Shown here piece by piece: positions 3,198 to 39,630 of a DNA stretch of 64,000 bases. The position numbers were made by a program, and so were the translations under genes. The first letter of the stretch is position 1. Every line of letters begins with the position of its first letter. The DNA is from an uncultured Acidobacteriaceae bacterium. GTDB taxonomy: Bacteria > Acidobacteriota > Terriglobia > Terriglobales > Acidobacteriaceae. Location: positions 145,519-209,518 of the forward strand of contig CAWEEI010000006.1 of the NCBI GenBank assembly GCA_963808025.1, read 5' to 3'. Under the pieces are notes generated by a model. It was not told the DNA's origin. It made no database searches and worked only from the letters and a program-made list of their open reading frames with translations.

Positions 3198-3300
3198 CCC
3201 ACATCTCAGAGTCGAGATGTGGGGCACCCGGCGAGTGGTCAGTGAGTGCGGTCGCGCATCCGCCTGATACCCACCCAAGCGGAGCTTGGATGGGGCACCC
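3198..3300 (+). repeat. Two copies of REP-like palindrome family A (CCCAC-hairpin-TGGGGCACCC)
   Basis: cccacatctc-agagtc-gagatgtggggcaccc (3198-3229) and cccacccaagc-gga-gcttggatggggcaccc (3270-3300). Confidence 0.85.
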
Positions 3301-3408: not shown

Positions 3409-4738
3409 ATGAATCGGATGGATGCGAGAGGCTTTGGGCTGTTGAAGGGTGTTGCGCGGGCGGCGATGGTCGCCGTGCTGGGCGGTGCAGTGGCGATGGC
3501 GCAGGATGCGCAGCCGCAGAACGCGCCGCAGGCACAGGCGCAGCCGACTGCGGCACCGACTAAAGGGACGAAGACGATTCCGGATGCGCAGATTGAAGCG
3601 GGCGTGCTGAAGGCGCTGGCGGGCGCGCCCGATCTGGCGAACCAGGCGATTACGACCTCGACGGTCTATGGGACGGTGACGCTGTCGGGTTCGGTTGAGA
3701 CCGAGGCGCTGCGCACGGAGGCGGAGAACCTGGCGGCGCGCACCTTTGGGGTGAAGAAGGTGATTGACGAGATGACGCTGGGCAGCCAGCCGGCGGGGCA
3801 GCTGCAGTCGGACGGGACGATTGCACCGGCGCAGGGCGGGCCGGACTCGGACAATACAGGGCAGGCTGCAAACCAAGTCGCTCCGAATCAGGCTGGGCCA
3901 AGTCAGGCGCAGGGGCAGCCGAACTATGGGCCGGGCGCGCCTGAGTATCCGCAACAGCAGGGCTACCCACAGGCTCAGGGCTATCCGCAGCAGCAAACAT
4001 ATCCGCAGGCGCAGGGCTATCCGCAGCAGCAGCCGTATCCGCCGGCGCAGCGGTATCCGCAGCAGGGATACGCACCGCAGCAGCCTGTGTTTGGCGGGCA
4101 GGAGGCGGGCCAGACGGTGACGATCCCGAGCGGCGCGCTGGTGCGCATCCGGATCAACCAGACGCTGGATAGCGCGAAGGCCAAGCCGGGCCAGCACTTC
4201 GACGGCATCGTGGTGAACGATGTGGCGGCGGAGGGGGCGATTGCGATTCCGCGCGGCGCGGCGGTCCAGGGCGTCGTGGTGGACGCGAAGAAGTCGGGCG
4301 CGGTGAGCGGACGGGGCGAGATCTCGCTGCAACTGACGCAGGTGACACTGGGCGGCAAGAGCTACCCGATCGTCTCCGATGTGTGGGCTCACAACGGCGC
4401 GGACAAGGCGGTGCAGTCGGTCAACAGCACGGCGGTGGGCGGCGCGTTTGGCGCTCTGGTGGGCGCGGCGGCGGGCGGCGGCACGGGTGCGGCGATCGGC
4501 GCGGGCGTGGGCGGAGCTGCTGGGCCTGGGCTCGTCGGCGGCATCGCATACGGGGCAGGTGTATATCCCGTCGGAGGGGATGCTGACGTTCCATCTGGCG
4601 CAGCCGGCTGCGGTGGCGACGGTCTCGCAGGCGGAGATGGACCGGCTGGCGCAGGGCGTCCCGTCAGGCGGACAGCCGCAGATGCAACGGCGCTATCCTC
4701 CGGGATACTATCCGCGACCGTATCCTTATCCCTACTAA
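3409..4738 (+). CDS. Secreted BON-domain protein with YPQ-rich repeats and glycine zipper; frameshift near 4525
   Basis: Signal peptide, BON motif (DAQIEAGVLKAL..GTVTLSGSV..GVKKVIDEM), YPQQQGYPQAQG repeats, [25 protein letters not shown]. Confidence 0.8.
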
Positions 4739-15113: not shown

Positions 15114-18028
15114 GTGAGCGATGCGATGAAGGTGGATGCGGCGAGGGCGGCGGCTGAGCAGACGCCGGTGATGCGGCAGTACTTCGCGGCGAAGCAGGCG
15201 CACCCGGACTGCCTGATGTTCTGCCGCATCGGGGACTTCTACGAGCTGTTCTACGAGGACGCGATTGTGGCCTCGCGCGAGCTGCAACTGACCCTGACCG
15301 CGCGCGACCGCGAGAAGAAGCAGCCGATGTGCGGCGTGCCGTACCACGCGGCGGAGCAGTACATCCAGCGGCTGCTGCGCAAGGGCTACCGCATCGCGCT
15401 GTGCGAGCAGATGGAAGACCCCAAGCTGACCAAGAAGATCGTGCGGCGCGAGGTGACGCGGGTGCTGACGCCGGGGACGGTGGCGGATTCGGGGCTGGGG
15501 GCGGAGCAGAGCAACTGGCTGGCGAGCGTGGCTGCGGTTGGGGCGGGTCCGGCGGCTGTGCGTGGGGCTGGCGCTGGTGGATCTGTCGACGGGGGAGTTT
15601 CGCGCGACGGAGTTTGCCGGGGCGGGGGCGTGGGCGCAGTTGGCGGATGAGGTGGGGCGGGTGAGGCCGGTGGAGATGTTGTTCGCGGAGGGTGGGCTTC
15701 GGAAGGTACAACAGCAGGTCCGTCGGCTCCGCTGCGCTTCGCTCAGGATGACAATTCTGTCGGGGCTTTGGGGAAGGAAGGCGGGAGCGGCGGTGGATGG
15801 TTGGAGGGGGTGCGGACGAGGACGGCGCTGGAGGATTGGGTGTTTACGGCGGAGTATGCGGTGCCGCTGCTGCGGCGGCACTTTGGGGTGCAGTCGCTGG
15901 ATGGGATGGGGCTGGGCGGGCATGAGGCGGCGGCGGTGGCGGCGGGGGCGCTGGTGCATTACTTGCAGAAGACGATGCAGGGTGGGCTGGAGCATGTGGA
16001 TGCGGTGCGGTTTTACGAGCGGGCGGAGGTGCCTGGCGCTGGATGCGGTGAGCGTGCGGAATCTGGAGCTGGTGGAGCCGCTGTTTTCGGGCGAGTCGGC
16101 GCAGACGACGCTGTTCCATACGCTGGATGCGTGCTGCACGCCGATGGGCAAGCGGCTGCTGCGGGCGACGCTGCTGCGGCCGGCGAGCGAGTTGGCGGGA
16201 GATTGAGGCGCGGCTGGATGCGGTGGGCGAGGCGGCGGGCGACCTGCGGCGGCGCGAGGGGGTGCGGCGGGCGATGGATGGGCTGCTCGATCTGGAGCGG
16301 CTGCTGGGGAGGGTGGCGCTGGATTCGGCTGGGCCGCGGGAGGTGATGGCGCTGGCGGGCGACGCTGGCGTGTCTGCCGGGGGTGCGGGAGGCGGTGGGG
16401 AGGTTTGAGGCGACAGGTGGAGGGAGCTGGTGGGTGGAATTTCCACAGCGAATTCCACAGGGATTTCCACAGAAAATCCGCTGGATTTCCCCGGTATATC
16501 CACAGCATCTTCCACAGGGATTTCCACAGGATTCGACGCGATGGAGGACCTGCACCGATTGATCGTGGAGACGGTGGTGGAGGAGCCTCCGGTGACGCTG
16601 GCGGATGGTGGGGTGATGCGCGCGGGGGTGGATGCGGAGCTGGATGAGCTGCGGGAGCTGGGGCGGTCGGGGCGGCAGGCGCTGGCGGGGATTGAGGAGC
16701 GGGAGCGGCAGCGGACGGGGATTGGGAGCCTGAAGGTGAGGTTCAACTCAGTGTTTGGGTATTACCTGGAAGTGACTAAGGCGAATAGCAGATCGGTTCC
16801 GGCGGATTATGAGCGGAAGCAGACGCTGGTGAATGCGGAGCGGTTTACGACGCCGGAGCTGAAGGAGTATGAGGCGAAGATTTTGACGGCGCAGGAGCGG
16901 TCGGGGGAGATCGAGCGGCGGATCTTTGCGCGAGCTGCGGCGGCAGCTGCTGGACGCGGCGGGGCGGATGCGGGAGACGGCGCGGCGGGTGGCGGAGATC
17001 GATATGCTGGCATGTTTTGCACATCTGGCGGCGCTGCGGGGGTGGGTGCGGCCGCAGGTGGAGGATTCGGGGGTGCTGGAGTTTGTGGCGGGGACGGCAT
17101 CCGGTGGTGGAGAGGAGGATGGAGGAGTCGGGCGGGGGGAGGTTTGTGCCGAACTCGATCTCGCTGGAGGGGTGGTTGGAGGGGACGGACGAGAGGCAAC
17201 CCACCCTTTCCGATGAAACTGGAAAGGATGGGCCACCCGAGGGTCGTGGCTCGTCTGGGCACCTGCGTCGATTGCGCTGATTACGGGGCCGAATATGGGG
17301 GGCAAGAGTACGTATCTGCGGCAGGCGGCGCTGCTGGTGGTGATGGCGCAGTGCGGGGTGTTTTGTGCCGGCGGAGCGGATGCGGCTGGGGCTGGTGGAC
17401 CGGATCTATACGCGGATTGGGGCGAGCGACAATGTGGCGCGGGGGCGGTCGACGTTTATGGTGGAGATGACGGAGACGGCGGCGATTCTGAACACGGCGA
17501 CGGCGCGAAGCCTGGTGCTGCTGGATGAGATGGGGCGTGGAACTGCGACATACGATGGGCTTTCGCTGGCGTGGGCGACGGTGGAGCATCTGCATGAGAG
17601 GATCGGGGCGCGGACACTGTTTGCGACGCACTACCACGAGCTGACTCTGCTGGCGGAGCGGCTGCCGCGGCTGAAGAACCTGCGGGTGACGGTGAAGGAG
17701 ACGGCGGGCGGGATCGTGTTTCTGCATACGGTGGAGGCGGGGGCGGCGAGCAAGAGCTACGGGATCGAGGTGGCGCGGCTGGCGGGGCTGCCGACGGGGG
17801 TGATTGCGCGGGCGCGGGAGGTGCTGAAGCTGCATGAGCGGGCGGAGACGCAGCAGGTGGCGCAGTGCGCTGGAGCCGGCGGGAGGGGCGATGCAGATGA
17901 CGATGTTTACGCCGCTGTCGCAGAGGATTGTGGACCGGATGGCGGCGGTGGATGTGGATGGGCTGACGCCGCGGGAGGCGCTGGCTCTGCTGGCGGAGTT
18001 GCAGCGCGAGTTGGGAGCCAGCTCATGA
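15114..18028 (+). CDS. mutS: DNA mismatch repair protein MutS with internal insertions; frameshifted
   Basis: [98 protein letters not shown]. Confidence 0.97.
16434..16530 (+). repeat. Phased 11-12 bp direct-repeat array of TCCACA (DnaA-box-like) inside mutS
   Basis: TCCACA at 16442, 16454, 16466, 16499, 16511, 16523; degenerate copies at 16477 and 16488; inverted half (gtggaa) at 16434. Confidence 0.85.
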
Positions 18029-19268
18029 TCGCGAGGTCGAAACCGAAGGCGATGGTGGTGGCGGGGGTGATGAGCGGGACGTCGGCGGATGGGGTCGATG
18101 TGGCCGTGTGCCGGATTGCGCCGGGGGCGCGGGCGGGGGATGCGCCGCGGGTGAAGCTGCTGGGGCATGTAGGGGTGGGCGTATCCGCGGGCGGTGCGGG
18201 CGGAGGTGATGCGGGTGATGGAGGGGGAGCGGTGACGGCGGCGGAGATGAGCCGGCTGAATTGGCGGCTGGGGGAGATTTATGCGGGGGCGGTGGTGAAG
18301 ACTTGTTGGGAGGTGGGTGTCGGGGTGGGGAGAATCCCCACGTCAGACCAAGGTCTGACATGGGGCACCCAAAGGCGTTGGGGTTGGTGGGGATGCATGG
18401 GCAGACGGTGCATCATGACGCGGCGGGAGTGCGGGCGCTGGGCGCGCGGGTGCGTTCGACGTGGCAGATGGGCGAGGCGGCGGTGGTGGCGGAGCGGGTG
18501 CGGTGTCCGGTGGTGAGCGATTTTCGGCCGGCGGATCTGGCGGCGGGCGGGCAGGGTGCGCCGCTGGTGCCGATGCTGGACTGGTGCCTGTTCCGGTCGA
18601 AGACGCGAGGGAGGGTGCTGCTGAACCTGGGCGGGATTGCGAATCTGACGGCGATCCCGGCTGGGGGTGGGTTGGAGGAGGTGGTGGCGTTCGATAGTGG
18701 GCCGGGGAATATGGTGATTGATGCGTGCATGGGGGAGCTGTATGGGAAGCGGTACGATCGCGGTGGGGCGGTGGCGCGGCAGGGGCGGGTGATGCGGGGG
18801 GTGGTGGGGAGGGTGATGCGCGAGCGGTACTTCCCTGCCCTGCCGCCGAAGTCGTGTGGGCGGGAGGAGTTTGGGGCGGGGTTTGCGGCGCGGTTTATTG
18901 CCATGTGCCGGGATGCGGGTGGGAGCGATGCGGATGTGGTGGCGACGGCAACGGCACTGACGGCGGAGTCGGTGGTGGAGGCGTATCGGCGGTTTGTGAT
19001 GGAGAGGTTCGCGGGGTCGAAGGTGGAGGCGATTGTGGCGGGGGGTGGGGTGCGGAATGGGACGCTGATGGGGATGCTGCGGGAGGGATTCGGCGGGCTG
19101 GGGGTGAGGGTGCGGGCGATGGACGAGGTTGGGGTTCCGGCGCAGGCGAAGGAGGCGGTGGCGTTTGCGCTGCTGGCTTGGCTGACGTGGCATGGGAGGG
19201 CGGGGAATGTTCCGGCGGCTACGGGAGCGGGGCGAGCGGTGGTGCTGGGGAAGGTTTCGTTCGGATGA
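18025..19268 (+). CDS. anmK: Anhydro-N-acetylmuramic acid kinase; frameshifted
   Basis: [70 protein letters not shown]. Confidence 0.95.
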
Positions 19269-19837
19269 CCACTCTTGGGAGCAAAGATCGGTGGTGGAAT
19301 CGGCGGGTGCCAACCCTGAAGATTAGTGTCCTCGTGGGAGTTGTTTTGATTGGGTTCCTCGCGTTTCTGTTTTGTGGGGATTTTGTCGCGAACGCTGTGT
19401 GGAGTGTTAGCCATCGACGAGCGGCGAGCTTTCGAGGACAGACTCTGAAGCTGCCTTGGCTATGGCGGGAAGAAGCGTGGACCAACTACAACGAGTTTGA
19501 TCTGACTCGGAGATATGTTGGGGTTGCGTTGCCTTCGACGGCGATGGTCAGGTATGTGAATCTTTCGAAGGCGGATGTTCCGAGGGAGATAGACGGCTTC
19601 CGAAGACTCTACGCCAACCTATCTAGCAAGGCGCCCGGTACATATACACGCGAAGATTTGATTGATGCCATTTTCGTCTGCGAGGATCAGGGGTCCAATC
19701 GGTCACAGATTCTTTTCATCAATTGCATCTCTCGGGATGGCCGTTGGAGGGTTACGTTTATTGGCCTGGAACGGAGCCGGTCGAACTTCGAGATGATTCT
19801 GAAAGGGGTGGCGTCGATGGGGACTCCGTCGAAGTGA
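19265..19837 (+). CDS. Lower-GC hypothetical membrane-anchored protein
   Basis: ATGA overlap with the anmK stop; N-terminal TM (VLVGVVLIGFLAFLFCG). Confidence 0.6.
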   Translation: MTTLGSKDRWWNRRVPTLKISVLVGVVLIGFLAFLFCGDFVANAVWSVSHRRAASFRGQTLKLPWLWREEAWTNYNEFDLTRRYVGVALPSTAMVRYVNLSKADVPREIDGFRRLYANLSSKAPGTYTREDLIDAIFVCEDQGSNRSQILFINCISRDGRWRVTFIGLERSRSNFEMILKGVASMGTPSK

Positions 19838-19905
19838 TCGGTACAGGCCAGGCCGGACGGTTGAAGAAGACGGTCGAGCTTCGCTCGATACCCCACCCTG
19901 TCGCG

Positions 19906-21556
19906 ATGAAACCGCGCCGAGGATGGGGCACCCGGGTTTGTGGAGGAGTGGTGCTGGGGCTGTGTGCGGCGATGGTGGGGTGTCATGGCGCGGGGCCGGA
20001 GGCGGGGACGGTGGTGGTGGTGATTGAGAGCAGCCCGAACAATCTCGACCTGCGGCAGGGGACGGATGCGCAGTCGGCGCGGGTGGGCGGTCTGATCTTC
20101 GATGCGCTGGTGAAGAAGGACGAGCACGACAACCTGCGGCCGTGGCTGGCGACGAGCTGGGAGCAGCCGGACCCGCTGACGTGGGTGATCCATCTGCGCG
20201 ATGGGGTGCGGTTTCCGATGGGCGGCCGCTGGAGGCGGCGGATGTGGTGTGGACGATTGAGAGCCTGATCGACCCAAAGCTGACGGCGGGGCTGCCGGGC
20301 GGGACGCTGGTGAGCGCGGTGAGCGGGAACTTTGCGAGTGTTGACCGCGCGGTTGCGCTTGCGACCGGCTGACGGTGGCGGTACACATGAAGCGGCCGGA
20401 TGCGGGGCTGCTGTTCAACATGAGCGATGGGCTGTTTGGCGTGGTTCCGCGCGGGGCGGGGAGCGACTTTGGGCTGCACCCGGTTGGGTCGGGGCCGTTT
20501 AGGTTTGTGAGCCAGGTGCAGGACAAAGAGGTGGTGGTGGAGAGGAACCACGATTGCTGGAGTGACGGGATGAGCGGCAAAGATCCCACCCATCGCGATA
20601 CGGCCGCGATGGATGGGGCACCCGGGCTTTCGGAGATTGAGAGGGTGCGGTTTATGGTGGTGCCGGATGGGATTACAACGGCGCTGGAGCTGCGCAAGGG
20701 TTCGGCGGACGTGAGCAGCAATGCGCTGACGCCGGACATGGTGTACGCGCTGCGCGATGCGCCGGGGCTCGAGACCTCGCGGGTGACGGGCTCGAATGTG
20801 TGGTATCTGAACTTCAACGTGGCGGAGGGCGCGCTGCGCGACAAGCGGGTGCGGCAGGCGATCGCGCTGGCGATCGACCGGCCGGCGATTATTGCGTCGC
20901 TGTGGCGGGGACATGCGCGACCTGCGGAGTCGCTGCTGCCGGAGGGGCACTGGGCGGCGGCGACGCATGAGGAGCTGGCGCAGTATCCGCATGACCCGGC
21001 GCGGGCGCAGGCGCTGCTGGAGGCGGCGGGGTATCGCGCGGGGCGGGATGGGGTGCGGCTGCGACTGAGCTGAAGAGTCTCGACGGAGGAGGAGACGCGG
21101 CTGCTGGCGGCGGTGCTGCAGCAGCAACTGCGTGCGGCGGGGATCGCGTTGACGATCCGGTCGGCGGAGTTTGGGACGTTTTACTCGGATGTGACGAAGG
21201 GGGCGTTCCAGATGTACGTGCTGAAGTGGGTGGGGTCGAATGAGGACCCGGATATCTTTCGGTATATGTATTCGTCGGCGAGCTTTCCGCCAAAGGGCGC
21301 GAACCGCGGCCACTACGTCAACGCAGAGGTAGACGCGCTGCTGGCGAAGGCGGCGCAGGAGACCGGGCCGGCGGCGGAGGTGTTGGCGCGGCGGCGGGCT
21401 GAGTATATGGAGGTGGAGGAGATACTGGCGGAGGAGATGCCGTCGGTGCCGCTGTGGTATCCGGACAGCGAGGTGGTGCATACGACGCGGCTGGCGGGGG
21501 TGCGGGCGCGGGAGGATGGGAGCTTCGATTTTTTAAGGGATGGGCGGGTGAGGTAG
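19906..21556 (+). CDS. Family 5 (peptide/nickel) ABC transporter substrate-binding lipoprotein; frameshifted; start may be GTG 19834
   Basis: Lipobox-like MVGC, IESSPNNLD, LIFDALV, HLRDGVRF, PVGSGPF, VRQAIALAIDR, ANRGHYVNAEVD. Confidence 0.88.
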
Positions 21557-21570
21557 GAAAGAGCCAATAC

Positions 21571-21610
21571 AGAGATTCTGGCCTTCGGCTTCGCTCAGGC
21601 CAGAATGACG
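21571..21610 (+). repeat. REP-like palindrome family B
   Basis: gattctggcc-ttcggcttcgctca-ggccagaatgacg. Confidence 0.8.
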
Positions 21611-21641
21611 GCATTTGAGGGCGATAGGTGGGGCGCGCGGC

Positions 21642-22034
21642 TTATTCCGCGGCCTGGTGGGCGAGGGTTTCGATGACGGCGATGTTGGCGAGGAGGTCTT
21701 CGGGGAGGTTGTGGCGGGCGCGGAGGTAGGCGGGGGAGTTCCAGGTGATGGTGGTTGCGCCGGTAGGGTCCTGCGCGATGAGGAGTTTGAGTGGGAGGTC
21801 GATGGCGATGGAGGGTGAGGCGAGCATGAGGGGCGTGCCGGCTTTGGGGTTGCCGAAGATAACGACTTTGGTGGGCGGCATGGCGAGGCCGGCGGCGGCG
21901 GCTTCGCCGGAGTGGTCGATGACGACGAAGAGCTTGACACCTTTGGCGGCGAGCAGTTGGGTGAGGCGCGCGACGGTCTCGTCGGCGGAGTGGTGGGAGG
22001 AGATGGATAGGAGGCCGGATTCGGGAGGGGTCAT
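21642..22034 (-). CDS. DUF302 domain protein
   Basis: IDHSGEAAAAGL..VIFGNPKAGTPLM..IAIDLPLKLLI. Confidence 0.9.
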   Translation of the reverse strand: MTPPESGLLSISSHHSADETVARLTQLLAAKGVKLFVVIDHSGEAAAAGLAMPPTKVVIFGNPKAGTPLMLASPSIAIDLPLKLLIAQDPTGATTITWNSPAYLRARHNLPEDLLANIAVIETLAHQAAE

Positions 22035-22078
22035 GGGTGCCTCCTTGCGCTGTTATGGGAGCGCGAGCCAGGTCTGAA

Positions 22079-22134
22079 ATGCGGGGGTCCCTCCGCTCCG
22101 GCGGCAAAGAACGCCGCCTTCGGTCGGGATGACG
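22079..22134 (+). repeat. REP-like palindrome family B
   Basis: atgcgggggtccctccgctccggcggcaaagaacgccgccttcggtcgggatgacg. Confidence 0.75.
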
Positions 22135-22173
22135 GCCATTCAGGATTAAGGGTTAGTTGATGCTGCGCGCGGT

Positions 22174-22247
22174 TGGTTGCCCCCCAGGGATTCGAACCCC
22201 GATCGAGCGAGTCAGAGTCGCTTGTCCTACCATTGAACGAGGGGGCA
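22174..22247 (-). tRNA. tRNA-Gln (CTG)
   Basis: Minus strand TGCCCCCTCGTTCAATGGTAGGACAAGCGACTCTGACTCGCTCGATCGGGGTTCGAATCCCTGGGGGGCAACCA. Confidence 0.96.
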
Positions 22248-22349
22248 CCGGCGATGCACGATTGCCGGAGCGAAGCGGACTGACGCGACCGCTGGCTGCC
22301 TTATTGAGTGTACTGGGGTGAGTGTGCGGGGTCAACGGCGGGTGGGCGG

Positions 22350-23618
22350 CTACTCGACGGGGCGTTTGGCGTTGTAGCCGTCGCGGGCGACGACGTCGTA
22401 CTTGAGGGGCTTGCCTTTTTCGTCCTGCATCTGGAGGGGGTGGCCTTCGTTGTCCACGAGGATGACTTTAATCTTGCGGTAGCTGCCGTCGTTGGCCATG
22501 TTGGTGGGGCGGTAGGTGAGCAGGTACTGGTTGCGGATGGAGTTATTGATCTGACTGAAGTCGTCGGGCAGCTCGCCCTGGAAGATGGGGGCGAAGTAGA
22601 GGCCGCCGGTCATGGTGGCGAAGGTGCGCATCTCGTTCTGGGCCTGGAGGTAGTTAATCTCGCGCATGCCTCCGCCGCGGCCCATCTCGTTGAGGATGGC
22701 GCCGGTGGAGATGGTGAAGATGGTGACGTTTGGAGTGGCCTTGATCTTGGCGAGGATCTTGTCGAAGTTGACTTTGGAGAAGGTGTCAGCGCCGGAGCCG
22801 ATGAGCAGGATGTATTTGCGGCCCTCGATGCGGCTGGTGCGGTCAAGCGCCTCGTAGAGCGCGTCGAACATGTCGGTGTCGGAGAAGCCGGGGAGGGTGA
22901 GCGAGTTGAGCGCCTGCGCGACGACCTGCTGGTTGTTGGTGAAGTCGGAGAGGATGTGGGTCTGCAGGTCGTAGGTCATGACGGCGACATAGTCATCGGG
23001 GCGCAGGGAGTGGAAGAAGCCGACGGCGGCGTTGCGCATGTCGTTGATGAGGACGTAGGAGTTGGCGGCGAACTCGAGCAGCATGACGGCGGTGATGGGC
23101 GTCTGCGTGATGCGGACGGTGTCGACCTTCTGCTCCACGCCATCTTCGAGGACGAGGAAGTTGGAGGCTTTGAGGCCGGGGACGAACTGGTGGTTCTGGT
23201 TGAGGATGACGGAGACATCCAAATTGACGATGGGGACGTCGACGCGCAGGGAGTAGGTGGCGCCGCCGGGGTTCCTGACCCGAGGCTCTTCGGGGGCGGG
23301 CGGCGGTTCGTCGGATGGCTTCTTTTTCGGGATGACGATGGGGCCGTTGTCGGTGTTGGGGCCGGAGTTGTCCTGGGTTTGGGATGCGGGAGGGGCGGCT
23401 TGTGGCGGGGCCTGCGTTTGGGCGTGTGCGGCGGGGAGGACCAAAGCGATTGCGGCGAGAGTAAGGGCGGCGAGCAGCGCGGTGAGGAGGAGCTCGCGCG
23501 AAGCAGGGGACCGTCGCATGCGGCAATCTCGTAGACCCGGGTGCAGGCCGAGTCGAGTGCGGGGGCGCACGGAGCGATTTCTTTGCGGGGCCATCGAGTT
23601 CGGATTCATGGTCGGCAT
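22350..23618 (-). CDS. Acidobacterial VWA-domain protein (TIGR03436-like); start uncertain
   Basis: LRVDVPIVNLDVSV..FLVLEDGVEQKV..MFDALY..GRKYILLIGSGADTFS..IRNQYLLTYRPTN..DGSYRKIKV..RDGY. Confidence 0.88.
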   Translation of the reverse strand: MPTMNPNSMAPQRNRSVRPRTRLGLHPGLRDCRMRRSPASRELLLTALLAALTLAAIALVLPAAHAQTQAPPQAAPPASQTQDNSGPNTDNGPIVIPKKKPSDEPPPAPEEPRVRNPGGATYSLRVDVPIVNLDVSVILNQNHQFVPGLKASNFLVLEDGVEQKVDTVRITQTPITAVMLLEFAANSYVLINDMRNAAVGFFHSLRPDDYVAVMTYDLQTHILSDFTNNQQVVAQALNSLTLPGFSDTDMFDALYEALDRTSRIEGRKYILLIGSGADTFSKVNFDKILAKIKATPNVTIFTISTGAILNEMGRGGGMREINYLQAQNEMRTFATMTGGLYFAPIFQGELPDDFSQINNSIRNQYLLTYRPTNMANDGSYRKIKVILVDNEGHPLQMQDEKGKPLKYDVVARDGYNAKRPVE

Positions 23619-23741
23619 GGTCTCTAAACTTTACTCCCGGTTAGACGATTTTCGCGTCTATCTGGATGTGTGCATAGGCAAGCGTGCGACATCCAGGTTT
23701 ATATTCGCTCGCGTTGGGGCTGGTTGTTCTAGTCTGTGGAG

Positions 23742-25826
23742 ATGAGAGCTTTGCCAAGGACGCTTAGGGAATGCCGACGGATACGCTGGACGGTAATGGT
23801 TGTAGCGTGCCTAGCGTGTGGGAGTGCGGACGCGCTCAGCCAGCAGACCGCGAGTCCGATGGCGGCGGCAGGACTTCCGGCGCCAGCGGCGGCGATGCCG
23901 GCGGTTGCGCCGAATGGGGCGCAGGTATTTCCGCTGGCGGAGGTGCGGCGGGGGTTGCGCGGGGTGGCATATACGGTGTTTGAAGGGGTAACGCCGGAGC
24001 CGATGACGGTGGAGATTCTGGGTGTGCTGAAGGATGCGATCGGGCCGGGGCAGGACATGATCCTGGCGCGGCTGGGCGGTGAGAAGGCGGAGTACACAGG
24101 GGTGGTGGCGGGCATGAGCGGCTCGCCAGTGTATGTGGATGGGCGGCTGGTGGGGGCGATCAGCTACCGCATCGGCGAGTTTTCCAAGGAGCCGATCTGC
24201 GGGATCACGCCGATTGAGCAGATGCTGGAGGTGCGGGACGGAGCGGCAAGCCAGATGCAGGTGGCTGGGGTGGGGGGCGGGCAACGACTACAAAGTGCAA
24301 ATGCGGGGGTCCCTCCACTCCCCCTTCGACTCACTGCGCTCGCTCAGGGTCCGGTCGGGATGACGGCTTCTGGGGCAGTGCAGGGTGGGAACGGCGAGGT
24401 GCAGCCGATTGAGACGGCGCTGGTGTTTGGCGGGTTCTCGCAGGATGCGGTGGCGCGGTTTGGGGAGCGGTTTCGCGCGATGGGGATGACGCCGGTGGCG
24501 GGGTTGGGCGGCGCGGCGGCGGCGGGGACAAAGCAGCCGGAGCCGCTGGTGCCGGGGTCGGCGGTAAGCGCGGTGCTGGTGCGCGGCGACCTCTCGATCT
24601 CGGGGACGTGCACGGTGACGTATGTCGACCCGACGCAGCTGCTGGCGTGCGGGCATCCGATCACGCAGTTTGGGCCGGTGGAGATGCCGATGACCAAGGC
24701 GGAGGTGGTGGCGACGCTGGCCAGTCCGCTGAATGCGTTCAAGATCATCAATACGACGGAGACGGTGGGGTCGTTTACGGAGGACCGCGCGTCGGCGATT
24801 CTAGGGCGGTTTGGCGTGGATGCGCGGATGATTCCGGTGAGCGTGGAGGTGGTGCCGGAGGGGGTGGGGGGTAGTTCGCCGGTGAAGCGGGTTTCGATGC
24901 AGGAGACAGGGAGTATTCCCACGTCAGGCGGAAAGATGTCTGACCCTTCGGCAGGCTCAGGGCAGGCTATGGGGCACCCATTGATTGGGAAGTTGGGCGG
25001 GATGCACTTTGAGGTGCTGAACAACCGTGAGCTGACGCCGGCGGCGATGCTGGTGTCGGTGTATCAGAGCCTCTCCGGGACAAACGAAGCGGCGAATGAG
25101 ATGAGCTACCGCATGACGGGCGAGCTGACGCTGAAGGGGCTGCCGCCGGTGCGGCTGGAGGGGATGATGGCGCCGAACGAGGCGCAGTCGGGCGCGATCA
25201 GTGCGGCGCTGTTTGTGAACGACCGCTTCAGCCGGCTCTATCAGAACTCTGAAGAGCAGCCGGAGGTGACGGGACTGCAGCTGCGGATGGAGGCGATCCC
25301 TGAGCGGCGGACAGCGGTGCTGGAGGGCGCGCGGCTGGGGCAGACCGAGGTGCGCGCGGGCGATACGGTGGAGGTGGAGGCGACGCTCGATCCATACCAG
25401 GCGCAGGCGCAGGTGGTGCGGCTGCAGGTGAAGCTGCCGGACAGCCTGACGCCGGGGCCGCTGCGCATGGTGGTGAGCGATGGCGCGACTCTGGACCGGC
25501 TGACCGGTGTGGGCGCGGCGGGAGCGGGGGTGTTGCAGATGGCGGGTGCGGGGCAACATCCGGTGTCGCTGGCGGATGCCGTGGCGAAGATGAACCGGAG
25601 TCATGCGAACGATCGGATCTATGTCACGTTGCTGGACCACACGGCGCAGGCGGAGCTGGATGCGGAGTCGCTGCCGGCAGTTCCGCTCTCGATGGCGAAT
25701 GTGCTGGAGCCGTTGAAGGCGACGCAGCAGATGCAGTTGACGGGTGAGAGCGCGGTGGAGGCGGGGTCGATTGCGACCGGGTACGCGGTGACGGGCGCGC
25801 AGGTGCTGACGCTGGATGTGAAGTAA
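23742..25826 (+). CDS. SpoIVB peptidase S55 domain protein
   Basis: GVVAGMSGSPVYVDGRLVGAISY, GITPIEQM, GTCTVT..ACGHP; signal peptide. Confidence 0.88.
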   Translation: MRALPRTLRECRRIRWTVMVVACLACGSADALSQQTASPMAAAGLPAPAAAMPAVAPNGAQVFPLAEVRRGLRGVAYTVFEGVTPEPMTVEILGVLKDAIGPGQDMILARLGGEKAEYTGVVAGMSGSPVYVDGRLVGAISYRIGEFSKEPICGITPIEQMLEVRDGAASQMQVAGVGGGQRLQSANAGVPPLPLRLTALAQGPVGMTASGAVQGGNGEVQPIETALVFGGFSQDAVARFGERFRAMGMTPVAGLGGAAAAGTKQPEPLVPGSAVSAVLVRGDLSISGTCTVTYVDPTQLLACGHPITQFGPVEMPMTKAEVVATLASPLNAFKIINTTETVGSFTEDRASAILGRFGVDARMIPVSVEVVPEGVGGSSPVKRVSMQETGSIPTSGGKMSDPSAGSGQAMGHPLIGKLGGMHFEVLNNRELTPAAMLVSVYQSLSGTNEAANEMSYRMTGELTLKGLPPVRLEGMMAPNEAQSGAISAALFVNDRFSRLYQNSEEQPEVTGLQLRMEAIPERRTAVLEGARLGQTEVRAGDTVEVEATLDPYQAQAQVVRLQVKLPDSLTPGPLRMVVSDGATLDRLTGVGAAGAGVLQMAGAGQHPVSLADAVAKMNRSHANDRIYVTLLDHTAQAELDAESLPAVPLSMANVLEPLKATQQMQLTGESAVEAGSIATGYAVTGAQVLTLDVK

Positions 25827-25932
25827 TTGTGAGTAATGAGTTGTGATCGATGATTTGTGTGAGTTCAGCAACGGATGGGGTGGGGCGTTTGGCTCCGCCT
25901 CTTTTATTTTGGATAGGCGGTAGACTGCGAGG

Positions 25933-28224
25933 ATGAGGATGCGGAGTGGTTTGGCGGTGGTTGGTGTTGTGAGTTTGGGCGCGGTGCTGCTGGGATTGAG
26001 CGCGGGGGCGGCGGCGCAGGGGACCAAGCAGTGGACGACCTCGCGCTACGACGAGATGGAGCAGGGGACGACAGAAGGCGTCGCGATCGGCGGGGATGGG
26101 CGGCTGGAGGCCGGGCCAGCGACTTCCCTGCTCTATGCGACGGCCGGGAATTATGTGTGGTCGGTGGCCGCCGACCCTGCGGGCAATGCGTATGTGGGGA
26201 TGGGTGGCGTGGCGGCGGGCAGCGCGGTGGTGATGCGGGTCGCGCCGGATGGCAAAGCGGCGAAGGTCTTCGAGGGGAAAGAACTTGGAGTGCAGGCGGT
26301 GCGGGTGGGCGGGGATGGACGCGTGTATGTGGCGACCTCGCCGGAGGGGAAGGTGTATCGGCTGGGAGCTGATGCGGGTGCGACCGCAGCAGACGCTGCG
26401 GTGGTCTTCGATCCGGCGCAGACGGCGGAGAAGCCGAAGTATCTGTGGGACGTGGTGCAGGCGGGCGGCGGGGACATATATATAGCTACGGGCGCGCCGG
26501 CCGTGGTCTATCGCGTGCCTGCGGGCGGAGGCAAAGCTGAGGTTGCGTTCCAGACGGCGGACCAGCACATTCGCTGCCTGCTGATGGCGGCGGACGGAAC
26601 GCTGTGGGCGGGCAGCGATGGCAGCGGGGTGATCTACAAATTCGATACGAAGCTGGTGGGGGCGAAGCCGTTTGCGGTGTATGCCGCGGCGAAGAAGGAG
26701 ATCACCGCGCTGGCGATGGATGGCGCGGGCAATGTATACGCGGCGGGAGTGGGCGCGAAGGCTGCGCCGGGCCCCGTGGGGAGCCAGCCTGGGCTGCCTC
26801 CTCTGCCGGTGACCGGAGCGGTGGGGGTGACGATCACGTTTGCGCAGCCGGGTTCGGCGAATGCGGCGACGGCGAATACGCTGGTCCCGGAGGGTTCGGA
26901 GATTTACAGGATCGCGCCGGATGGGAGCCCGGAGAAGTTGGCTGCGCTGAAGGACGATGTGGTGTATGCGCTGGCGGTGCATGCGGGGAGTTTGCTGGCG
27001 GCTACAGGCAATCGCGGGCGGGTGTATCGCGTGGGGATTGGCGGTGCTTCGGGCAGCTCTGCGGACGATGCGGGGCGGTTGACTGACGTGGCGCATCTGG
27101 AGGCCTCGCAGGGGATGGCGTTCGCGACGGTGAAGGATGGGATGCTGGTGGCGACGAGCAACAGCGGGAAGGTCTTTCGCCTGGAAGACAAGGCGGCGGC
27201 GAATGCGACGTATACCAGCGAGGTGTTCGATGCGGATGTGTTTTCGAAGTGGGGGCGGGTGGAGGTGCGGCCGGAGGTTGCAGTGGGCGCGGGGTTCGAT
27301 CTGTTTGTGCGCAGCGGCAATGTGCAGAGTCCACTGATGGGATGGAGCGACTGGTCGCCGGTGTCGCGGCAGGGTGCGGTGACGGTGCCGGGCGGGCGGT
27401 TTGCACAGTGGAAGGCAGTGCTGCGCGCGGGCGGAGAGATTAACTCGGTGGGGCTGAATTATCTGGAGAAGAACCTGGCGCCGGTGGTGGAAGATGTTGC
27501 GGTGCAGCCGGGGGCACGGGTGCAGGCGAACGCGATCCAGCAGGCGAATGGCACGGTGCAGGTGAGCTTCCCTGCCCCGGCGAATGCAGCGGGTGTACAG
27601 GTGTTTACACCGGACGCGAACGCGCAGCCGCTGATGGCGCAGAAGGACAAGACCGCGGTGACGGTGCGCTGGGCCGCGCACGACGACAATGGCGACGACC
27701 TGATCTACAGCGTGTGGTATCGCGGGGTGGGGGAGCGGAACTGGCTGCTGCTGAAGGACAAGATAAGCGAGAAGTTTTTGAGCTTCGATTCGGAGTTGTT
27801 GCCGGACGGCAATTACGAGGTGAAGGTGGTGGCGAGCGATGCGCCGGACCATACCGACGCCGACGCACTGACGGGTGAGCGGGTGAGCGAGGCGTTTGTA
27901 GTGGATACCACTCCGCCGGTGCCAGGGGTGCTAACGGCGGCGCTTGTGCCGGGCACTGCGGGGAAGATCCAGGCGACTTTTGAGGCGAGGGATGCGACCT
28001 CGCCGATCGCCCACGCGGAGTACTCGGTGGATGCGGGGCCGTGGCAGTATCTGGAGCCGGTGGGGGGCGTGTCAGACTCGTTGGAAGAGCGGTACGACTT
28101 TATAGCGGCCGTGCCCGCGGCAAATGCAACCGAACAGGTTACAGATGCGCGGGAGCATGTGCTGGCGGTGCGGGTGTACGACCGGTATGAGAATGTGGCG
28201 GCGGTGAAGACGGTGGTGCGGTAG
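25933..28224 (+). CDS. Secreted beta-propeller protein with C-terminal Ig/FN3-like domain
   Basis: Repeated blades (YVWSVAADPAGNAYVG, GRVYVATSPEGKVYRL, GTLWAGSDGSGVIY); WAAHDDNGDDL..DGNYEVKVVASD..VDTTPP. Confidence 0.85.
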   Translation: MRMRSGLAVVGVVSLGAVLLGLSAGAAAQGTKQWTTSRYDEMEQGTTEGVAIGGDGRLEAGPATSLLYATAGNYVWSVAADPAGNAYVGMGGVAAGSAVVMRVAPDGKAAKVFEGKELGVQAVRVGGDGRVYVATSPEGKVYRLGADAGATAADAAVVFDPAQTAEKPKYLWDVVQAGGGDIYIATGAPAVVYRVPAGGGKAEVAFQTADQHIRCLLMAADGTLWAGSDGSGVIYKFDTKLVGAKPFAVYAAAKKEITALAMDGAGNVYAAGVGAKAAPGPVGSQPGLPPLPVTGAVGVTITFAQPGSANAATANTLVPEGSEIYRIAPDGSPEKLAALKDDVVYALAVHAGSLLAATGNRGRVYRVGIGGASGSSADDAGRLTDVAHLEASQGMAFATVKDGMLVATSNSGKVFRLEDKAAANATYTSEVFDADVFSKWGRVEVRPEVAVGAGFDLFVRSGNVQSPLMGWSDWSPVSRQGAVTVPGGRFAQWKAVLRAGGEINSVGLNYLEKNLAPVVEDVAVQPGARVQANAIQQANGTVQVSFPAPANAAGVQVFTPDANAQPLMAQKDKTAVTVRWAAHDDNGDDLIYSVWYRGVGERNWLLLKDKISEKFLSFDSELLPDGNYEVKVVASDAPDHTDADALTGERVSEAFVVDTTPPVPGVLTAALVPGTAGKIQATFEARDATSPIAHAEYSVDAGPWQYLEPVGGVSDSLEERYDFIAAVPAANATEQVTDAREHVLAVRVYDRYENVAAVKTVVR

Positions 28225-39575: not shown

Positions 39576-39593
39576 AGCGAGACAAGGCAAATA

Positions 39594-39630
39594 CGAGATT
39601 CTGCCCTCGCTAGCTCGGGTCAGAATGACG
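39594..39630 (+). repeat. REP-like palindrome family B
   Basis: gagattctgccc-tcgctagctc-gggtcagaatgacg. Confidence 0.75.

What the first reader, a model, noticed from the sequence alone, without database searches (positions are those of the whole stretch)
15712..24979. REP-like palindromes inserted inside protein-coding genes
Seen: the same palindromes found between genes also sit inside CDSs. mutS has two (15712-15753 family B; 17200-17238 family A, read [13 protein letters not shown] just before the Walker A motif). anmK has one (18337-18370). The ABC binding protein has two (19892-19933, supplying MKPRRGWGTR at the predicted signal-peptide start; 20585-20623, PTHRDTAAMDGAP). The S55 peptidase has two in an uninterrupted ORF (24301-24365, NAGVPPLPLRLTALAQGPVGMT; 24918-24979, PTSGGKMSDPSAGSGQAMGHP, with a family-B fragment nested in a family-A copy). 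That is 7 of 13 copies within ~9 kb of coding sequence. Established: Rickettsia palindromic elements create de novo peptide loops in this way. Inference: an active acidobacterial equivalent that remodels housekeeping proteins. The reading frame through the 15712 and 18337 copies is uncertain because of nearby indels.
Basis: partly seen in the sequence, partly recalled or inferred. Interest (0 to 1): 0.78.

Follow-up and report, generated by a model that had tools for sequence, protein, structure and literature searches.

The report
Palindromic repeats translated inside housekeeping proteins
Two families of short DNA hairpin repeats sit in frame inside at least 30 genes of an acidobacterium, adding short stretches that are predicted to form surface loops and were likely spread by two single-strand-DNA-cutting enzymes; this kind of insertion is already known from Rickettsia and other bacteria.

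Summary
Confirmed. All seven copies are where stated, and orthologues lack the extra residues. The frameshifts near three copies are assembly errors. Independent short-read contigs keep the 17200 and 18337 copies in frame and fix the downstream frame of 15712; S55 is identical to 24971.

Genome-wide there are 184 family-A and 131 family-B copies; at least 33 lie in coding frames, including IleS, ValS, LeuS, SecA, GlmS, GlmM and UvrC.

Family A is the hairpin that flanks an acidobacterial RAYT clade (4 of 7 Y1 genes here; 79 of 80 related loci). Family B flanks Ssn-like GIY-YIG genes in congeners (22 of 22).

Congeners carry their own copies in the same loops. Copies follow the local G-rich strand (307 of 315), not gene direction.

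In-frame REP/RPE insertions are in print (PMC3733652, PMC10969869), and this scan noted similar acidobacterial cases on other DNA. Ongoing activity, translation and any benefit are not shown. Verdict: a real new variant of a known kind.

The parts
15712..15753 (+). Family B hairpin (TGTC tag on the - strand) in mutS, in a variable loop near residue 200
   Evidence: downstream frame fixed by gap-free short-read contigs; upstream indel near 15699 inferred; G004, G006 and G018 carry their own A or B copies in this loop
17200..17238 (+). Family A hairpin (GTGG-foot subtype) in mutS, in the turn before the Walker A strand; loop 41 aa against 13-19 aa in 14 of 14 congeners printed
   Evidence: (X3 record 20 bridges it); the homologous site is a turn between two strands in the MutS model
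18337..18370 (+). Family A hairpin in anmK; loop 39 aa against 21 aa in 13 of 14 congeners; G004 has its own A copy at this site
   Evidence: (X1 and X2 bridge it)
19874..19933 (+). Composite: small upstream hairpin (19874-19888) plus family A copy (19892-19933) at the N-terminus of the family-5 solute-binding lipoprotein; predicted to supply the basic n-region and possibly the ATG
   Evidence: the family-A tail is at the same place in G002, G006, G018 and G020 (4 of 13 printed), degenerate in G010 by eye
20585..20623 (+). Family A hairpin inside the SBP_bac_5 domain, uninterrupted frame
   Evidence: G006 and G018 have A-derived peptides in the same loop
24300..24365 (+). Family B hairpin in the S55-like protein
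   Evidence: (X1 record 7 identical); G010 has its own B copy in this loop; coil in a low-confidence model
24918..24979 (+). Family A hairpin with a nested 24-nt hairpin module in the S55-like protein
   Evidence: the same nested form occurs in 8 copies in the list
21566..21610 (+). Intergenic family B copy between convergent genes
22078..22134 (+). Intergenic family B copy between the DUF302 gene and tRNA-Gln, both on the - strand
3198..3300 (+). Two tandem family A copies downstream of tRNA-Met, not called intragenic
39590..39630 (+). Family B copy, not called intragenic

Best explanation
The seven copies are in-frame members of two genome-wide hairpin repeat families that were likely spread by single-strand-DNA nucleases (family A by an acidobacterial RAYT clade, family B by Ssn-like GIY-YIG proteins) and likely persist in genes only where they keep the frame and fall in tolerant surface loops or termini. 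Shown here: the repeats, their frame, the extra residues relative to orthologues, the physical link of A to RAYT genes and of B to small GIY-YIG genes, different copies in the same loops of congeners, and the strand polarity. Inferred: that these nucleases make the new copies; that insertion or survival is tied to replication-strand asymmetry; that the peptides are translated and roughly neutral; that selection, not targeting, explains the reuse of the same loops.
For: Family A flanks 4 of 7 Y1_Tnp genes in the genome, each with its own stem subtype. The three scanned pass the NCBIfam RAYT cut-off (98-102 bits against 80). Of 80 related RAYT loci, 31 have a strict A hairpin nearby and 79 have the A tag within about 300 nt of the gene ends, against 1 of 76 control stretches. 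B-type motifs flank 22 of 22 small GIY-YIG loci and 0 of 7 UvrC-like loci from congeners. 29 in-frame copies lie in 27 ORFs with Pfam support; 24 of the 25 ORFs outside the window have family matches on both sides of the copy. Orthologues have short loops, or different A/B copies, at the same sites. In the MutS model of G004 the inserts (198-236, 453-493) are low-confidence coils between well-folded parts. No excess of target duplications (19 of 184 against a shuffled mean of 16), as expected for HUH-type rather than DDE-type movement. Orientation follows the G-rich strand in 178 of 184 A and 129 of 131 B copies, 23 of 24 A in G004 and 33 of 39 A in G016 stretches; 21 of 29 in-frame copies are antisense to their gene.
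Against: No Ssn-like gene was found in this 67.6%-complete genome, and only 1 of 131 B copies matches the published SRM pattern. The A foot is GTGC (172 of 184), not GTAG or GTGG, and neighbouring copies are tandem (57 of 58 pairs), unlike typical REPINs. Inserts are longer than the hairpin (about 18-28 extra residues for 34-39-nt hairpins in anmK and mutS), so the moving unit is not defined. No empty-site allele within the species was seen; joints that skip an insert come from more distant organisms. Local skew changes sign many times even in the complete G004 chromosome, so 'G-rich strand' cannot simply be equated with a replichore, and the tagged strand is the C-rich one, not the strand expected from IS200/IS605 lagging-template targeting. 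The S55 model is poor (mean pLDDT 58). The shared N-terminal copy in the lipoprotein is old, not recent.
Confidence: 0.75

Rival explanations
1. The copies spread mainly by host recombination, gene conversion or replication slippage between existing hairpins; the RAYT and GIY-YIG genes use them as binding or cutting sites but do not make new copies, and the strand bias comes from strand-specific deletion of hairpins.
For: Tandem same-strand neighbours (57 of 58 pairs) and large identical groups (27 and 25 copies); flanks travel with the hairpin; the A hairpin is more stable on the tagged strand in 162 of 184 copies.
Against: Single copies appear at unrelated coding sites with no prior homology; stem subtypes pair with individual RAYT genes; family B shows the same polarity with no stability difference between strands (-7.4 against -7.3 kcal/mol).
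Confidence: 0.15
2. Some intragenic copies are kept by selection, as protein parts (the lipoprotein n-region and start codon) or as DNA/RNA signals, and are not merely tolerated.
For: The A tail sits at the same distance from the lipobox in G000, G002, G006, G018 and G020 and encodes a basic stretch; an ATG lies in the hairpin loop in G000, G006 and G020. Essential genes carry copies.
Against: At least six congeners have an ordinary n-region without it; other inserts differ in family, orientation and frame at the same loop; copies decay in relatives.
Confidence: 0.15
3. The genes are pseudogenes broken by the insertions, or the pattern is an assembly artefact.
For: mutS, anmK and the ABC gene are frameshifted in the window as assembled.
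Against: 11 of 13 frameshifts in 15540-18480 are absent from independent short-read contigs that still carry the copies; S55 is identical in X1; the complete genome G004 has intact MutS and AnmK with such inserts.
Confidence: 0.03

Closest known systems
Intragenic GTAG and CGTC REPs (Di Nocera 2013, PMC3733652; parts 1-5 of 8 of the text read, figures not held)
   Same: Short tagged hairpins inserted in frame in genes, including uvrABCD and tRNA synthetases; highest numbers in Opitutus terrae and Rickettsia conorii; the paper names an acidobacterial group of tyrosine transposases with flanking inverted repeats.
   Different: Acidobacteria are not among its intragenic cases in the parts read; family A has a GTGC foot; head-to-tail neighbours dominate here but are rare there; it found no dedicated enzyme for CGTC repeats. 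The acidobacterial repeat sequences are in a figure I could not see, so family A may equal one of them.
REPtrons, TnpA-REP/RAYT class 2 (Quentin 2018, PMC6006769; passages, parts 4-5 of 10 and section 31 read)
   Same: HUH and Y---NP motifs, short low-copy genes flanked by cognate bulged hairpins; in-frame REP insertions inside RAYT genes are described for subclass 2.4.
   Different: The canonical foot is GTAG or GTGG; here it is mostly GTGC. Subclass was not assigned by a tree.
Ssn nucleases and SRM/NTS repeats (Chenal 2025, PMC11893778; abstract, passages and section 17 read)
   Same: CGTC/TGTC-AT hairpins flanking single-domain GIY-YIG genes of about 95 aa.
   Different: Family B does not fit the published SRM pattern (1 of 131); 'acidobacter' and 'intragenic' do not occur in the paper's main text; mobilisation by Ssn is only suggested in its discussion.
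Rickettsia palindromic elements (via review PMC10969869, passages; Ogata 2000 and 2002 not read)
   Same: Palindromes fused in frame into unrelated housekeeping genes.
   Different: RPEs as first reported are about 150 bp with a conserved peptide and nearly half are intragenic; here 31-66 nt, about 10% called intragenic (lower bound), both orientations, free-living host.

Membership tests
GTAG-type REP / REPtron (family A) | Many dispersed short imperfect hairpins | tested here: met
   184 copies, Markov control 11
GTAG-type REP / REPtron (family A) | Flanks a RAYT gene (HUH, Y---NP, NF047646) | tested here: met
GTAG-type REP / REPtron (family A) | 5' GTAG or GTGG tetranucleotide at the hairpin foot | tested here: not met
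   GTGC 172, GTGG 10, GCGC 2 of 184; my tail filter favours these words, but the tail was first found by k-mer excess
GTAG-type REP / REPtron (family A) | Mostly inverted pairs (REPIN/BIME) | tested here: not met
   57 of 58 neighbour pairs (A and B together) on one strand; inverted pairs do occur around RAYT genes (13 of 80 loci)
GTAG-type REP / REPtron (family A) | Hairpin-dependent ssDNA cleavage by the cognate RAYT | not testable with these tools
   Needs a nuclease assay
CGTC REP / SRM-Ssn (family B) | 5' CGTC or TGTC tag followed by AT | tested here: met
   CGTC 93, TGTC 38 of 131; required by my search, first seen as k-mer excess
CGTC REP / SRM-Ssn (family B) | Flanks a single-domain GIY-YIG gene | tested here: met
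   22 of 22 small GIY-YIG loci in congeners, 0 of 7 UvrC-like; none found in G000
CGTC REP / SRM-Ssn (family B) | Matches the published degenerate SRM pattern | tested here: not met
   1 of 131
CGTC REP / SRM-Ssn (family B) | Nuclease belongs to cd10448 / the Ssn clade | not testable with these tools
   No CDD library; inferred only from size, single domain and flanks
Rickettsia palindromic element | In-frame fusion into housekeeping ORFs | tested here: met
Rickettsia palindromic element | About 150 bp with a conserved encoded peptide | tested here: not met
   31-66 nt in the window, both orientations, several phases
Rickettsia palindromic element | Sequence homology to RPE families | not tested
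   No RPE sequences were fetched
MITE | Target-site duplication | tested here: not met
   Shared 6-mers on both flanks in 19 of 184, shuffled mean 16, max 29; duplications under 6 nt not tested

The most novel reading that the evidence does not exclude
In Acidobacteriaceae two unrelated single-strand nucleases, a RAYT clade and Ssn-like GIY-YIG proteins, deposit hairpins with one shared strand polarity and act as a continuing source of new protein sequence: the same loops of essential enzymes are hit again and again, and one copy has been recruited as the start and basic n-region of a lipoprotein signal peptide in several species.
Probability: 0.2. Interest if true: 0.72.

Novelty: new variant of a known kind. 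Interest (0 to 1): 0.45.

Why it matters
How REP-type repeats are copied to new sites is still open. This genus offers a testable case: cognate nuclease-hairpin pairs with matching subtypes, filled and empty orthologous sites inside conserved genes where boundaries can be read, and a near-absolute strand polarity that constrains the mechanism. It also gives a natural map of insertion-tolerant loops in essential enzymes and a candidate birth of a signal-peptide segment from selfish DNA. The basic phenomenon, in-frame palindromes in housekeeping genes, is known, which limits the surprise.

Tried and rejected
The repeat finder on the window missed both families because stems covary. A loose family-B anchor was mostly noise. 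No RNA holder was listed, so expression is untested. Rejected: pseudogene or artefact reading; MITE reading; gene direction as the cause of orientation (nearest ORF direction agrees in 117 of 181 A and 87 of 129 B). Rows dropped before counting: of 46 in-frame calls, 10 A-like hits failed the strict filter (one, C3:205167, looks genuine), and 7 more were dropped, one being ordinary GlmS coding sequence and six lying in five ORFs with no Pfam hit. 65 calls with coding flanks but no shared frame were not resolved apart from the three in the window. The test that skew is a pure domain property was weak: opposite-direction neighbours agree in only 252 of 450 pairs, and skew around rplN is only +0.06 to +0.10. 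The stretches were mostly centred on known copies, not drawn at random. The S55 model is too poor for a fold search. AnmK was not mapped on a solved structure. Supplements of PMC3733652 held no acidobacterial repeat sequences (4 files); its figures and the Quentin supplements were not seen and may already show family A. Literature searches (listings only, apart from the four papers named) showed no paper on intragenic repeats in Acidobacteria or on REP strand polarity; the library lacks most subscription journals.
Full report
1. Observation. The seven copies are present at the stated places. K-mer excess in the 3.58-Mb, 67.6%-complete genome shows two families. Family A is a hairpin that opens with CCCA, has a covarying stem and ends in TGGGGCACCC or TGGGCCACCC. 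Family B ends in GATGAC(A/G), so it begins with CGTC or TGTC on the other strand. A structure-aware scan found 219 A-like and 131 B-like hits against 11 and 1 in a Markov control; 184 A passed a stricter filter. The window has 12 copies; 9 fall in 15-25 kb, one of the densest 10-kb bins.

2. Frame. The assembly is rich in one-base errors. Frameshift-aware alignment shifts in 15540-18480. Contigs of public peat metagenome runs hold near-identical DNA and show compensating one-base differences at 11 of them. Contigs bridge the 17200 and 18337 copies, and with their differences applied both genes read through. For 15712 the downstream frame is fixed by three gap-free contigs; the upstream error near 15699 is inferred only. 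S55 is identical in X1 over 24140-24971 and 24942-26000. The best holder may be the source sample, but X2 and X3 come from other studies and agree.

3. Orthologues. From 40 relatives, the loop before the MutS Walker A strand is 13-19 aa in 14 of 14 congeners printed and 41 aa here. The AnmK loop is 21 aa in 13 of 14, 60 aa with an A copy in G004, and 39 aa here. At the first MutS site G004 and G006 carry A copies and G018 a B copy, while G002, G008 and G011 have 22-23 aa. G010 has its own B copy in the first S55 loop, and G006 and G018 have A-derived peptides in the ABC loop. Different families in one loop mean independent insertions. These counts include G009, an unpublished genome; no conclusion depends on it. 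At the lipoprotein N-terminus the A tail is shared by 4 of 13 congeners printed, so that copy is old or recurrent. An ATG in its loop gives a basic n-region, but upstream starts are possible. In an AlphaFold model of G004 MutS the two inserts are low-confidence coils between folded parts, and the pre-Walker site is a turn between strands 702-707 and 714-718; alignment to E. coli MutS also breaks at the two inserts. The S55 model places both inserts in coil but is weak.

4. Genome-wide. A coding model called 46 of 350 hits in frame. After the drops listed under Tried and rejected, 29 copies in 27 ORFs remain. 25 of 30 ORFs fetched outside the window hit Pfam: AroB, IleS, ValS, LeuS, SecA, GlmS (two copies), GlmM, IspE, RibF, MnmG, LeuC, QueA, UvrC, TatD, LigD, Lhr, PrmC, a ClC channel and others; 24 of the 25 match on both sides of the copy. 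With the other four window copies the total is 33 of 315 copies in 29 genes, or 30 with the excluded but genuine-looking C3 hit; this is a lower bound. The A pattern occurs in 23 of 24 congeners and in 8 of 8 genomes of the family, but at most 3 times per genome in the other 112 genomes of the phylum sample.

5. Candidate enzymes. The genome has 7 Y1_Tnp genes. Four are flanked by A hairpins of matching stem subtype; three scanned pass the RAYT model NF047646 and carry HUH and Y---NP motifs (class 2 of PMC6006769). The 80 best relatives are all in records titled as Acidobacteria of some rank; 79 have the A tag at a gene end, against 1 of 76 controls. On the tagged strand the foot is GTGC (172 of 184) or GTGG. 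For B, the only GIY-YIG match in G000 is UvrC, but 22 of 22 small GIY-YIG loci from congeners are flanked by B-type motifs, against 0 of 7 UvrC-like loci. This is the layout of Ssn nucleases (PMC11893778), although B misses the published SRM pattern.

6. Polarity. The tail-last strand is the locally G-rich strand in 178 of 184 A and 129 of 131 B copies, although the bodies are barely skewed. It holds in G004 (23 of 24) and G016 (33 of 39). Gene direction does not explain it. Local skew flips many times along contigs and along the closed G004 chromosome, so a link to replication with later inversions is likely but not shown.

7. Mechanism. Most likely, RAYT and Ssn-like nucleases cut single-stranded hairpins and seed copies without target duplication, with a strand bias; copies that break genes are purged and those in tolerant loops stay as near-neutral peptides (0.75). 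Rivals: host recombination with biased loss (0.15), selected function of some copies (0.15), artefact (0.03).

8. Known and new. In-frame REPs and RPEs in repair genes and tRNA synthetases are in print (PMC3733652, PMC10969869). Earlier notes of this scan report similar acidobacterial cases and a same-strand RAYT-linked family on other DNA; they are unchecked and came after my tests. Not found in the searches named: the GTGC-foot family as an intragenic element, two nuclease systems feeding the same loops, the shared signal-peptide copy and the polarity. It works like a REP/RPE system but fails the GTAG/GTGG, SRM-pattern and RPE-size tests, so I file it as a new variant of a known kind, interest 0.45.

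Noticed in passing
window 24938-24967; 8 copies in the list; G004 MutS near residue 470: A 24-nt hairpin module is inserted at one fixed point of family A copies, and a similar tract sits inside a B copy at G000:C4:435123. Its length keeps the frame; it may be a third, parasitic element.
   Followed up: partly
window 16436-16541: mutS has a third insert made of imperfect repeats of a TTTCCACAG-like word, in the loop where G004, G006, G007 and G015 carry longer inserts, some with family A; not one of the two families.
   Followed up: partly
window 19265-19837: A 190-aa ORF of lower GC (53%) with no Pfam hit lies between anmK and the ABC lipoprotein; in relatives such as G002 the two genes appear adjacent.
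   Followed up: partly
G000 whole genome; G004 C1: GC skew is very strong (about 0.2-0.3) and changes sign in blocks, also in a closed chromosome; the cause is unexplained.
   Followed up: partly
L001 and L002: Two other Y1 genes are flanked by other palindromes (CCTAGG-centred and GGGCTTTAGCCC types); the second is also overrepresented genome-wide.
   Followed up: no
L005 and L003: The L005 RAYT has no clear ATG where the others start. The L003 RAYT follows serS divergently, with A copies overlapping both gene ends.
   Followed up: no
window 3937-4065: 18-nt tandem repeat encoding a QQxYP-rich low-complexity stretch.
   Followed up: no
G158 C1 and C4: In this congener several family A copies form inverted pairs about 50-60 nt apart, REPIN-like, unlike G000.
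   Followed up: no
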